Shown: positions 4,702-5,688 of the stretch, piece by piece
Position numbering within the stretch: the stretch's first letter is position 1
Layout of the letters: every line of letters starts with the position of its first letter
Virus record (IMG/VR): IMGVR_UViG_2778261249_000001
Coordinates: 1-6,136 of that record
Length of the DNA: 6,136 nucleotides
DNA from: a virus
Taxonomy: Duplodnaviria > Heunggongvirae > Uroviricota > Caudoviricetes
Strand: one strand, 5' to 3'
Translations under genes and position numbers: made by a program
Notes under the pieces: model-generated
Databases searched by the model: none
Seen by the model: the letters and a program-made list of their open reading frames with translations, nothing else
What the model was told of the DNA's origin: nothing

Positions 4702-4917
4702 TTAAGCGGCTTTGTGTTCCGGCGGGAACACGTCATCAAGACTGACTTTTGCGCCTAACTTGTTTAGGCACTCAACAAGAGCACGGCATGTTTTAAGGTC
4801 TGGGAAGCGACGACCAGATTCCCAATGTCCGATAGCTCCCTGTGTGCATCCAACTGCCTTAGCAAGTGTTGTTTGAGAGATATTCAGTGACTCTCGATAT
4901 TTTCGTAGGTTGCTCAT
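4702..4917 (-). CDS. cro: Cro-like repressor, XRE-family helix-turn-helix, 71 aa (not lambda Cro)
   Basis: ATG 4917-4915 preceded by GGAGGG (complement of 4921-4926). Protein MSNLRKYRESLNISQTTLAKAVGCTQGAIGHWESGRRFPDLKTCRALVECLNKLGAKVSLDDVFPPEHKAA has a typical HTH_3 motif. First gene of the rightward-operon equivalent, divergent from cI. The ORF-track entry 4702..5088 is an unsupported upstream extension. Confidence 0.85.
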   Translation of the reverse strand: MSNLRKYRESLNISQTTLAKAVGCTQGAIGHWESGRRFPDLKTCRALVECLNKLGAKVSLDDVFPPEHKAA

Positions 4918-4943
4918 ATGCCCTCCATAGTAACCATGAAACA

Positions 4944-4972
4944 ATAATACGATATGTACTTTTAGAATGCAA
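4944..4972 (-). promoter_or_regulatory. PR-like promoter for cro and the early rightward-operon equivalent
   Basis: On the minus strand: -35 TTGCAT (complement of 4967-4972), 17-bp spacer, -10 TATTAT (complement of 4944-4949). Predicted start is about 20 nt upstream of the cro ATG. Confidence 0.55.
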
Positions 4973-5019
4973 ACAAAAAATACATCTTGTGCATGGATGG
5001 TTTTAGTACAGAGCGTAAT
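4946..5019. promoter_or_regulatory. Candidate OR operator sites (15-bp dyads A[G/A]TAC-N5-GTA[C/A]T)
   Basis: AATACgatatGTACT (4946-4960, overlaps the PR -10), AGTACagagcGTAAT (5005-5019, just upstream of the cI start), and a weaker AATACatcttGTGCA (4979-4993). The same dyad type recurs at PL. Confidence 0.5.
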
Positions 5020-5028
5020 AATAAGGGT

Positions 5029-5688
5029 ATGAAAATGAAATGGTATGAACTGGCTAGATCCAGAATGAAAGAGCTCGGCATAACTCAAGAGAAGTTAGCT
5101 GAAGAGCTTGGTATGACGCAGGGTGGAATTGGTCACTGGTTGCGCGGATCTCGTCATCCATCTCTTGACGAGATTGGTGTGGTGTTTAAATACCTTGGTA
5201 TTGATAACGTCTCATTCAACCACGACGGTACATTTTCACCTGTTGGCGAATACTCATCTGCCCCCGTTAAAAAACAATATGAGTACCCTGTTTTTTCTCA
5301 TGTTCAGGCCGGGATGTTCTCGCCTGAGCTTAGAACCTTTACCAAAGGTGATGCGGAGAGATGGGTCAGCACAACCAAAAAAGCCAGTGATTGTGCGTTC
5401 TGGCTTGAAGTTGAAGGTAATTCCATGACCGCGCCAACAGGATCCAAGCCAAGCTTTCCTGACGGGATGTTAATTCTCGTTGACCCTGAGCAGGCTGTTG
5501 AGCCAGGTGATTTCTGCATAGCCAGACTTGGTGGTGACGAGTTTACCTTCAAGAAACTGATCAGGGATAGCGGTCAGGTGTTCCTACAGCCACTAAACCC
5601 GCAATATCCAATGATTCCATGCAATGATAGCTGTTCCGTAGTAGGGAAAGTTATCGCCAGCCAGTGGCCTGAAGAGACATTTAGTTAA
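5029..5688 (+). CDS. cI: CI prophage repressor, 219 aa: non-lambda N-terminal HTH domain fused to a lambda-type S24 autopeptidase/dimerisation C-terminal domain
   Basis: From about residue 84 (nt 5278) to the end, [38 protein letters not shown]…[13 protein letters not shown] matches lambda CI near-identically as I recall it, including the Ala-Gly cleavage site, catalytic Ser (EGNSMT) and Lys (FKKL). The N-terminal 83 aa ([40 protein letters not shown]…) are unrelated to lambda CI. I place the start at ATG 5029 rather than the ORF-track TTG 4987; ATG 5035 is an alternative. Confidence 0.9.

What the first reader, a model, noticed from the sequence alone, without database searches (positions are those of the whole stretch)
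4702..5150. Cro and CI share a near-identical recognition-helix motif (TQG[A/G]IGHW)
Cro has ISQTTLAKAVGCTQGAIGHWESG and CI has [23 protein letters not shown]. The two divergently encoded repressors carry almost the same second helix of the HTH, which fits both reading the same A[G/A]TAC half-site. It also hints that the two DNA-binding domains arose by duplication or exchange.
Basis: seen in the sequence. Interest (0 to 1): 0.45.

Follow-up and report, generated by a model that had tools for sequence, protein, structure and literature searches.

The report
Cro and CI share recognition helix
The two opposing switch proteins of this lambda-like E. coli prophage (VT2-Sakai immunity type) are ancient copies of one DNA-binding domain that kept almost the same DNA-reading helix because they compete for the same operator sites, a textbook arrangement known from phage 434.

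Summary
Cro (window 4702-4917, minus strand) carries CTQGAIGHW and CI (5029-5688, plus strand) carries MTQGGIGHW. In both, the motif sits at the start of helix 3 of an HTH_3 (Cro/C1-type) domain.

Seven of eight identical residues is far above the generic HTH_3 background, where the best of 279 domains scored 5/8.

Six 17-bp operators (three at OR, three at OL) carry the half-site (A/T)A(R)TAC.

In 22 distinct cognate CI/Cro pairs from related prophages, the two helices change together. The operator changes with them:
- H1 Gln pairs with +2 A; H1 Lys/Thr/Pro pairs with +2 T/G.
- H5 Gly, Ala and Ser/Cys pair with +3 R, T and A.

The shared reading surface is therefore well supported.

The two domains are homologous along their whole length, but the split is old. 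[quoted passage not shown] Synonymous sites in the motif are scrambled. More than 800 cluster representatives lie closer to the CI N-terminal domain than its own Cro does. Recent duplication or exchange is rejected.

The region is the known VT2-Sakai/Stx2-II immunity type (cI2c/cro4). GenBank annotates its operators, and its CI C-terminal half is near-identical to lambda CI (100% for cI2c variants per Smith et al. 2012). CI/Cro paralogy and helix-operator coevolution are published concepts. This is an ordinary, well-behaved example, of low to moderate interest.

The parts
4702..4917 (-). cro: 71-aa HTH_3 protein, first gene of the PR operon
   Evidence: Translation. Pfam HTH_3 47.8 bits, with no hit to the lambda-Cro or P22-Cro families. 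Annotated as cro, 'similar to bacteriophage L C2', in VT2-Sakai AP000422 at 94% nt identity.
4822..4848 (-). Cro residues 24-32, CTQGAIGHW. Helix 3 (recognition helix) is residues 26-34, QGAIGHWES.
   Evidence: Aligned to P22 c2 helix 3. Q26, A28, I29, G30 and H31 are at least 90% conserved in 29 relatives.
4944..4973 (-). PR promoter-like site: -35 TTTGCA (4973-4968), 18-nt spacer, -10 TATTAT (4949-4944)
   Evidence: Consensus scan. Same position as the annotated PR in AP005153 and AP000422.
4945..4961 (.). OR1, TAATACGATATGTACTT (overlaps the PR -10)
   Evidence: Corresponds to an annotated 17-bp 'putative operator' in AP005153 and AP000422.
4978..4994 (.). OR2, AAATACATCTTGTGCAT
   Evidence: 2 mismatches. 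Annotated putative operator in relatives.
5004..5020 (.). OR3, TAGTACAGAGCGTAATA (just upstream of the cI start, PRM region)
   Evidence: Annotated putative operator in relatives.
5029..5688 (+). cI: 219-aa repressor (217 aa if started at 5035), an HTH_3 N-terminal domain plus a Peptidase_S24 C-terminal domain
   Evidence: Residues 84-218 are near-identical to the lambda CI C-terminal domain (8gmu_A E 1.8e-89; 3bdn_A E 2e-96), including the QAG cleavage region, GNSM serine and FKKL lysine contexts.
5113..5139 (+). CI residues 29-37, MTQGGIGHW. Helix 3 is residues 31-39, QGGIGHWLR.
   Evidence: Aligned with lambda CI GMGQSGVGALFNG.
5719..5740 (+). Terminator-like hairpin plus T-run after cI
5767..5783 (.). 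OL3, AAATACAAAGCGTTATA
   Evidence: 2 mismatches; sequence read.
5800..5816 (.). OL2, TAGAACATTTTGTATTG
   Evidence: 1 mismatch.
5825..5841 (.). OL1, AAGTACAAATCGTACTA, lying between and overlapping the PL hexamers
   Evidence: 0 mismatches. PL -35 TTGACT 5814-5819 and -10 TACTAT 5837-5842.
4662..4693 (-). nutR (boxA CGCTCTTA plus boxB GCCCTGAAAAAGGGC); marks the lambda-like right boundary of the immunity module
5898..5912 (+). nutL boxB, GCCCTGAAGAAGGGC. The lambda-like N gene starts at 6071.

Best explanation
This is the immunity switch of a lambdoid E. coli prophage of the VT2-Sakai/Stx2-II type (cI2c/cro4). CI and Cro are homodimeric helix-turn-helix proteins whose DNA-binding domains are ancient paralogues of one five-helix Cro/C1-type (HTH_3) domain.

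Both proteins insert helix 3 (Cro QGAIGHW, CI QGGIGHW) into the major groove of the same six 17-bp pseudo-palindromic operators: OR1-3 between the genes and OL1-3 after cI. The half-site is (A/T)1 A2 R3 T4 A5 C6. By homology with lambda CI Gln44 and 434 Gln28, the first helix residue (Gln, H1) reads the adenine at +2. The small residue at H5 (Gly) faces position +3. Ile and Trp are core residues.

Because the two proteins must compete for the same sites, selection holds their base-reading residues together, and they drift together with the operator when immunity specificity changes. Different affinity orders for the individual operators must then come from the residues that differ: H3 Ala vs Gly, the residues after Trp (ES vs LR), helix 2, the N-terminal arm of CI, and CI cooperativity through its lambda-like C-terminal domain.

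Shown here: the sequences, the fold assignment, the operator enrichment, and the family-wide covariation. Inferred: the actual base contacts, the binding order and the transcriptional outcome.
For: - Motif and coordinates.
- HTH_3 membership of both proteins, and the S24 domain of CI.
- Motif is helix 3: AF2 models. Foldseek best DNA-bound matches are P22 c2-operator complexes (0.8-1.9 A for Cro, 1.4 A for the CI N-terminal domain). Sequence alignments to P22 c2 and lambda CI helix 3.
- Operators: six sites at OR and OL, enriched over shuffles, overlapping predicted PR and PL. The same sites are annotated as putative operators in AP005153 and AP000422.
- Differences between the window and the Stx-phage operators fall only in the central spacer, not in the half-sites.
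- Conservation: QGAIGH[WY] is nearly invariant in Cro relatives of 57-97% identity.
- All 9 genome loci found through the Cro motif that have a divergent S24 repressor show TQG[GA][IV]GHW in that repressor, which was not selected for. The hosts include E. coli, Erwinia, Rahnella, Thorsellia, Pantoea and Avibacterium.
- Covariation across 22 distinct cognate pairs: CI TQGAVAHW with Cro TQGAIAHY; CI TKGAVSHW with Cro T[TKP]GA[VI]CHY; CI ..RI.NYE with Cro SQSRL.NYE. Cognate pairs share 4.82 of 8 positions against 3.87 +/- 0.19 for shuffled partners, 0 of 10000 shuffles.
- Operator half-sites shift in step: +2 is A with H1 Gln and T/G with H1 Lys/Thr/Pro; +3 is R, T or A with H5 Gly, Ala or Ser/Cys; T4 becomes C/A in the NYE type. 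The H1 Gln/+2 Ade rule matches the published Cro 'evolutionary code' (PMC6649833).
Against: - No binding experiment or protein-DNA model was available, so base contacts are inferred by homology only.
- The CI N-terminal model was built from a single sequence (pLDDT 81.5) and its Foldseek E-values are weak (at least 0.016).
- Several shared residues (Ile, Trp, probably the Gly residues) are structural, so part of the identity reflects fold constraints rather than base reading.
- The covariation counts are not phylogenetically independent. cI-OR-cro is inherited as one block, so the number of independent coordinated changes may be as low as three or four.
- One group breaks the pattern: L207-type, CI TQGAVAHW with Cro TQAAIGHY.
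- Type-1 statistics are dominated by near-identical E. coli sequences.
Confidence: 0.85

Rival explanations
1. Recent origin. The Cro HTH was copied from the neighbouring cI (or the reverse) by a recent duplication, gene conversion or exchange, as proposed for phage 434, and the motif identity is simply young sequence.
For: Significant pairwise similarity over the whole domain (35% over 62 aa, E 4e-11). Identical domain architecture including the tail (Cro LDDVFPP, CI HDGTFSP). Cro lacks any hit to the true Cro families. There is a precedent in 434 (PMC6649833).
Against: - Of 16 identical residues in the HTH segment, 10 use different codons. Within the motif, T, G, I, G and H all differ at synonymous sites.
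- With helix-3 columns removed, all Cro proteins of the family form one clade and nearly all CI N-terminal domains another, across Enterobacterales and Pasteurellaceae.
- The Glu after Trp/Tyr is Cro-specific and the Leu is CI-specific in every helix type of the GH[WY] groups, types 1-3.
- 834 cluster representatives match the CI N-terminal domain at E <= 1e-3, whereas its own Cro would score about E 0.04 at that database size (extrapolated).
Confidence: 0.05
2. Structural signature only. TQG.IGHW is a fold or packing signature of one HTH_3 subfamily (Gly for close helix packing, Ile/Trp in the core). Its presence in both proteins says little about which bases are read, and specificity lies elsewhere (N-terminal arm, helix 2, loop after helix 3, DNA shape of the spacer).
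For: - The motif [TS][QPKR]G[AG][IVL][GSA]HW is widespread in proteobacterial CI-like repressors: 14 of 98 CI-type hits have at least 7/8 identity to the Cro motif.
- The same helix and the same TAC core occur in phages of very different hosts.
- All four helix types keep A5 and C6 (this frame was imposed).
- Lambda CI has a similar Gly-rich helix.
- The window and Stx-phage operators differ only in the spacer.
Against: The variable helix positions H1 and H5 change in parallel in both proteins and track operator positions +2 and +3. H1 Gln with +2 Ade is a documented contact rule (PMC6649833). Cognate pairs are more alike than shuffled ones.
Confidence: 0.1

Closest known systems
Phage 434 repressor and 434 Cro
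   Same: Cro is a CI-N-terminal-domain-like five-helix HTH protein rather than a lambda-type Cro. Cro and CI are clearly homologous, have nearly the same recognition helix (434 QQSIEQ vs QQSIQL, from my own knowledge), and compete for the same three-part OR operators. PMC6649833 describes 434 cro as derived from a duplicated cI DNA-binding domain.
   Different: - The sequences are only distantly related: 434 repressor hits Cro at E about 0.1, and 434 Cro does not appear in the sequence search.
- The operators are 17 bp with a central base pair and half-site ARTAC, not the 14-bp ACAA type (the latter from my own knowledge).
- The Cro/CI split here is old and family-wide, not a lineage-specific displacement.
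VT2-Sakai / Stx2-II / Nil2 / 2851 immunity region (cI2c, cro4)
   Same: The same genes, operators and layout at 94% nt identity over the finding's coordinates, and 100% in phage Louie PQ850616. cro is annotated 'similar to bacteriophage L C2', and three 17-bp putative operators with PR and PRM are annotated. The CI C-terminal half is identical to lambda (PMC3430580).
   Different: The window carries a sequence variant: a few residues differ in CI and Cro, and there are spacer differences in OR1 and OR2. Its flanks are lambda-like (N, nutL, nutR, cII) with a primase-helicase replication module.
Lambda CI N-terminal domain
   Same: A detectable homologue (E 0.003-0.02). Its recognition helix QSGVGALFN aligns with QGGIGHWLR. 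Both use 17-bp operators and share A2, A5 and C6 in the half-site (lambda half-site from my own knowledge). The C-terminal domain is near-identical. Cross-immunity between VT2-Sakai and lambda, and weak binding of lambda CI to VT2-Sakai operators, are reported (PMC10742460).
   Different: Position 4 of the half-site is T rather than C, and H2 is Gly rather than Ser. Lambda Cro has a different, mixed alpha/beta fold (my own knowledge), so lambda lacks the CI/Cro helix identity seen here.
PDB 28tn, 'lambda repressor-like protein from Escherichia coli' (released 2026-03-11)
   Same: The closest solved structure to Cro: E 2.4e-16, 48% identity, TM 0.85-0.91, rmsd 1.4 A. Same length and same DDVFPP tail.
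   Different: Its helix is TAGAICHY, the type paired with CI TKGAVSHW and ATATAC half-sites. No DNA is mentioned in the entry title, and no paper was found.
Cro 'evolutionary code' of Cordes and co-workers
   Same: Recognition-helix positions covary with operator half-site positions. H1 Gln pairs with +2 Ade, and H1 Pro with +2 Thy (PMC6649833). The same H1/+2 relation is seen here.
   Different: That code was derived for the true Cro lineage. Here it appears in a CI-like Cro clade and simultaneously in the cognate CI proteins, with an additional H5/+3 relation that I have not seen described.

Membership tests
Cro/C1-type HTH (Pfam HTH_3, XRE family) | Sequence match above the curated threshold | tested here: met
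   Cro 47.8 bits and CI 42.2 bits, cut-off 23.
Cro/C1-type HTH (Pfam HTH_3, XRE family) | Five-helix fold with helices 2 and 3 forming the HTH | tested here: met
   AF2 models. Foldseek matches to P22 c2, 434 repressor/Cro, C-proteins and SinR. The CI model comes from a single sequence.
Cro/C1-type HTH (Pfam HTH_3, XRE family) | Binds palindromic operator DNA through helix 3 | not testable with these tools
   Inferred only, from operator enrichment and helix/half-site covariation.
Lambda CI / LexA-type self-cleaving repressor (Peptidase S24) | S24 domain with Ala-Gly cleavage site and Ser/Lys dyad | tested here: met
   Peptidase_S24 100 bits. Residues 84-218 are near-identical to solved lambda CI C-terminal domains, including VQAGMF, EGNSMT and TFKKLI.
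Lambdoid immunity switch (cI - OR - cro, with OL/PL) | Divergent cI and cro, a tripartite operator between them overlapping PR and PRM, a second tripartite operator at PL, and flanking nut sites, N and cII | tested here: met
   Identical layout annotated in VT2-Sakai.
True Cro lineage (lambda Cro / P22 Cro / N15 Cro orthologues) | Sequence membership in the Cro-specific families | tested here: not met
   Only HTH_3, HTH_31 and HTH_19 matched at E <= 0.01, with no Cro-specific family. The nearest solved structures are CI-type domains.
434-type 'Cro derived from cI DNA-binding domain' | Cro significantly similar to its cognate CI N-terminal domain, with a near-identical recognition helix | tested here: met
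   35% over 62 aa, E 4e-11. 7/8 identity in the motif.
434-type 'Cro derived from cI DNA-binding domain' | Recent, lineage-specific displacement (Cro nearer to its own CI than to other Cro proteins) | tested here: not met
   Separate Cro and CI clades. Synonymous divergence.

The most novel reading that the evidence does not exclude
The window belongs to a large family of gammaproteobacterial prophage switches that has not been delineated as such. In it, Cro is an ancient paralogue of the CI N-terminal domain, recognisable by the GH[WY]E.G.R.P...DDVFPP signature, rather than a member of the 'true Cro' lineage. Helix positions H1 and H5 of both proteins covary with operator positions +2 and +3, which gives a simple two-protein, one-site recognition code. 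The identical helix and half-site in phages of E. coli, Erwinia, Pantoea, Rahnella, Thorsellia and Avibacterium, together with the partial likeness to the lambda CI helix, would predict repressor cross-talk or cross-immunity between otherwise unrelated prophages. It would also mean that immunity specificity in this clade is set mainly by the spacer, the flanks and the site geometry (a conserved 33/26-bp spacing), not by the recognition helix.
Probability: 0.35. Interest if true: 0.45.

Novelty: new member of a known kind. Interest (0 to 1): 0.25.

Why it matters
For this window it matters little. It confirms that the locus is a standard lambdoid bistable switch of the VT2-Sakai immunity type, which is carried by many Shiga-toxin phages.

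The shared helix explains how Cro and CI can compete for the same operators, and it identifies the residues to mutate (Gln H1, Gly H5, His H6). The family-wide covariation gives a small, testable recognition code that could be used to predict immunity groups and repressor cross-talk among Stx and other prophages. That is relevant to Stx-phage induction and superinfection.

Tried and rejected
- The word-indexed homologue search with the CI N-terminal domain returned only 12 near-identical fragments. I replaced it with the exhaustive representative search.
- A viral-contig scan with the CI N-terminal alignment returned 80 loci that were all 100% identical, so it was useless for diversity. Scans with P0127 and P0183 found no loci. 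Scans with P0140 and P0202 worked.
- The perfect palindrome TGTATGCA-N6-TGCATACA at 4617-4638 was considered as a seventh operator. I rejected it: from my own knowledge of the lambda sequence it lies in the stretch between nutR and cII that reads the same as in lambda (tR1 region), which corresponds to the 'putative rho dependent terminator' annotated in VT2-Sakai. It also lacks the TAC-N5-GTA frame.
- The TAC-N5-GTA match at 3460-3470 inside the O gene is treated as a probable chance hit.
- Recent gene conversion between cro and cI was rejected on codon usage and the tree.
- Fattah et al. 2000 (PubMed 11245215) is not held, and no paper was found for PDB 28tn.
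Full report
OBSERVATION

The window's minus-strand ORF 4702-4917 translates to a 71-aa protein: MSNLRKYRESLNISQTTLAKAVGCTQGAIGHWESGRRFPDLKTCRALVECLNKLGAKVSLDDVFPPEHKAA. The plus-strand ORF from 5029 translates to a 219-aa protein beginning [40 protein letters not shown]. Related GenBank records start this gene at the second ATG, 5035. The motifs map to 4822-4848 (Cro) and 5113-5139 (CI). The finding's coordinates therefore span cro, the intergenic control region and the first 40 codons of cI.

WHAT THE LOCUS IS

Pfam assigns Cro to HTH_3, and CI to HTH_3 plus Peptidase_S24. The neighbours are Phage_CII, DUF2740, Phage_rep_O and a Toprim/DnaB-like primase-helicase. nutR (boxA plus boxB) lies just downstream of cro. 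After cI come a terminator, three operator-like sites around a PL-like promoter, a nutL boxB and the start of a lambda-like N gene.

CI residues 84-218 are almost identical to solved lambda CI C-terminal domains, whereas the N-terminal domain is only a remote lambda CI homologue.

The DNA of the finding is 100% identical to phage Louie. It is 94% identical to VT2-Sakai, Stx2-II, the Stx1 phage of Morioka V526, Nil2, 2851, 1717, YYZ-2008 and many O157 Stx2a phages. In VT2-Sakai the same genes are annotated cI and cro ('similar to bacteriophage L C2'), with PR, PRM and three 17-bp putative operators. Smith et al. classify this type as cI2c/cro4 and note that its CI C-terminal half is identical to lambda's while the N-terminus is unique (PMC3430580). 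The locus is thus a known immunity type.

IS THE MOTIF THE RECOGNITION HELIX?

AlphaFold2 with a 29-sequence alignment gives a confident Cro model (pLDDT 90.4) with helices at 3-10, 15-22, 26-34, 41-54 and 60-63. A single-sequence model of the CI N-terminal domain (pLDDT 81.5) has helices at 5-16, 20-27, 31-39 and 46-55. TQG[A/G]IGHW therefore starts one residue before helix 3 and covers its first seven residues.

Foldseek puts the Cro model closest to PDB 28tn, an E. coli 'lambda repressor-like protein' (48% identity, rmsd 1.4 A). Next come P22 c2 repressor-operator complexes, at 0.8-1.9 A over 60-64 residues. The CI model matches the same complexes at 1.4 A and also 434 Cro, although with weak E-values.

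HMMER aligns the motif with P22 c2 GVSNVAISQWE and with lambda CI GMGQSGVGALFNG. Those are the DNA-reading helices of those proteins (established knowledge). Placement in the major groove is therefore inferred by homology; it was not modelled.

IS IT MORE THAN CHANCE?

The proteins share 22 of 62 residues (E 4e-11), and the 8-residue motif is 7/8 identical. Among 279 generic HTH_3 domains from multi-HTH proteins, which had themselves been picked for similarity to the CI N-terminal domain, none exceeds 5/8 identity to TQGAIGHW, and most share 1-2 residues.

The motif is, however, a subfamily signature. An exhaustive search with the CI N-terminal domain finds 834 cluster representatives at E <= 1e-3. 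Many of them carry [TS][QPKR]G[AG][IVL][GSA]HWL.GRR.P.

OPERATORS

The six sites are:
- OR1, 4945-4961, TAATACGATATGTACTT
- OR2, 4978-4994, AAATACATCTTGTGCAT
- OR3, 5004-5020, TAGTACAGAGCGTAATA
- OL3, 5767-5783, AAATACAAAGCGTTATA
- OL2, 5800-5816, TAGAACATTTTGTATTG
- OL1, 5825-5841, AAGTACAAATCGTACTA

The pattern is enriched over shuffled sequence. OR1 overlaps the predicted PR -10, and OL1 lies within PL. Differences from the Stx-phage operators fall only in the central five bases.

RELATIVES AND COVARIATION

Ninety-five Cro relatives were found. In 29 full-length ones (52-97% identity), Q26, A28, I29, G30 and H31 are at least 90% conserved.

A genome scan keyed on the Cro motif gave 10 loci. 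In 9 of them a divergent S24 repressor sits upstream, and although it was not selected for, it carries TQG[GA][IV]GHW. The hosts include E. coli, an unnamed Enterobacteriaceae bacterium, Erwinia, Rahnella, Thorsellia, Pantoea and Avibacterium. Each intergenic region holds three xTAC-N5-GTAx sites.

Viral-contig loci found through two diverged CI relatives gave further cognate pairs:
- CI TQGAVAHW with Cro TQGAIAHY, in at least nine distinct sequence pairs
- CI TKGAVSHW with Cro [ST][TKP]GA[VI]CHY or TKGAIGHY; 28tn's TAGAICHY belongs here
- CI ..[GS]RI.NYE with Cro SQSRL[SA]NYE
- One exception group: CI TQGAVAHW with Cro TQAAIGHY

Over 22 distinct helix pairs, cognate partners share 4.82 of 8 positions against 3.87 +/- 0.19 for shuffled partners (0 of 10000 shuffles). 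This test ignores phylogeny.

Operator half-sites shift with the helix type:
- Type 1 (H1 Gln, H5 Gly): A2, R3, T4
- Type 2 (H5 Ala): A2, T3, T4
- Type 3 (H1 Lys in CI and Thr/Lys/Pro in Cro; H5 Ser/Cys): T/G at 2, A3, T4
- Type 4 (QSR..N): C/A at 4

All regions average three sites in the AC-N5-GT frame. The H1 Gln/+2 Ade versus Pro/+2 Thy relation is the published Cro 'evolutionary code' (PMC6649833). Both proteins and the DNA therefore change together, which is the expected signature of two proteins reading the same site.

DUPLICATION OR EXCHANGE?

The two domains align over their full length, including the tail (Cro [24 protein letters not shown]). Cro has no match to Cro-specific families. 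As in 434, this Cro is a CI-type domain.

The split is nonetheless old:
- With helix-3 columns removed, a neighbour-joining tree separates all Cro proteins from nearly all CI N-terminal domains. The NYE-type CI domains are a third branch.
- The residue after Trp/Tyr is Glu in every Cro. It is Leu in every CI of types 1-3 except one, which has Met.
- Ten of the 16 shared residues in the HTH segment use different codons. These include T, G, I, G and H of the motif.

Recent duplication or gene conversion is rejected. Ancient paralogy, followed by coevolution under the constraint of shared operators, is the best reading, and it is the view already stated in the literature (PMC6649833).

MECHANISM (INFERRED)

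CI dimers and Cro dimers read the same 17-bp sites with helix 3. Gln H1 contacts A2, by analogy with lambda Gln44 and 434 Gln28 (my own knowledge). H5 faces position 3, and an Ala methyl against a Thy methyl would rationalise the Ala/T pairing. His H6 is a candidate for the T4-A5-C6 core. Ile H4 and Trp H7 pack in the core.

Differential occupancy of OR1 versus OR3 must arise from the non-shared residues and from CI cooperativity through its lambda-like C-terminal domain.

Fattah et al. are cited as reporting cross-immunity between VT2-Sakai and lambda and as attributing it to recognition-helix similarity. Lambda CI binds VT2-Sakai operators weakly in vitro, at micromolar apparent Kd (PMC10742460).

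CAVEATS

- There are no binding data and no protein-DNA model.
- The CI model comes from a single sequence.
- The covariation events are few and are inherited as blocks.
- Type-1 counts are dominated by E. coli.
- The half-site frame was imposed (AC-N5-GT), so positions 5 and 6 are uninformative there.

VERDICT

This is a further, well-documented example of a known arrangement in an already annotated immunity region. Interest is low to moderate.

Noticed in passing
window about 4833-4834 (inside the cro recognition-helix codons); loci L228, L231, L232; partner breakpoint near window 3457-3460: At least 10 distinct database proteins (P0081, P0083-P0091) share Cro residues 1-28 and then continue into different sequences. 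Three were traced to real E. coli prophage remnants. In these, cI is intact and cro is cut exactly after ...CACACAGGGAGCTA, then joined to tail genes, to the O C-terminus (at the operator-like palindrome TACCAAGGGTA of 3460-3470) or to the cII C-terminus. Microhomology at the junctions is only 1-2 nt. A second recurrent end lies after ...GRRF (P0075-P0077). A nucleotide-precise fixed end with many right-hand partners is unexplained.
   Followed up: partly
window 4945-5020 and 5767-5841; same pattern in L102, L116, L196 and others: Operator centre-to-centre spacing is 33 and 26 bp at OR (OR1-OR2, OR2-OR3), and 25 and 33 bp at OL (OL1-OL2, OL2-OL3). The 33/26 pattern, with the PR -35 inside the 16-bp gap, is conserved across the whole family. 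This differs from lambda's roughly 24/23 bp (my own knowledge), even though the CI C-terminal cooperativity domain is near-identical to lambda's. At OR the closely spaced pair is OR2-OR3, not OR1-OR2.
   Followed up: no
window 5029-5688, with mosaic joints near 5270-5290 (cI) and 4600-4700 (nutR): The immunity module is a cassette between lambda-like flanks. The CI C-terminal domain, the nutL boxB, the start of N, nutR and cII are near-identical to lambda, while the CI N-terminal domain, OR, cro and OL/PL are of the VT2-Sakai type. There are no rex genes: cI is followed directly by a terminator and OL.
   Followed up: partly
window 1269-3149 (- strand) and 3257-4117 (- strand): The replication module pairs a lambda-O-like initiator (Phage_rep_O N-terminal domain) with a 626-aa Toprim plus DnaB-like primase-helicase, instead of a lambda P-type helicase loader.
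   Followed up: no
L003, L005, L012 (genome contigs): Copies of this E. coli prophage region that are identical or 99% identical occur in metagenome bins labelled Bacillota and Segatella copri. A Cro-like gene with matching TAC-N5-GTA sites occurs in a 'Fibrobacteres' bin. The first two are probably binning contamination.
   Followed up: no
L175, L177, L178, L166: In the NYE-type modules the Cro still belongs to the DDVFPP Cro clade, but the CI N-terminal domain is a different HTH_3 lineage whose helix (GQGRIANYE or SQSRIGNYE) resembles its Cro (SQSRLSNYE). This is a possible case of convergence or of replacement of the CI DNA-binding domain.
   Followed up: no
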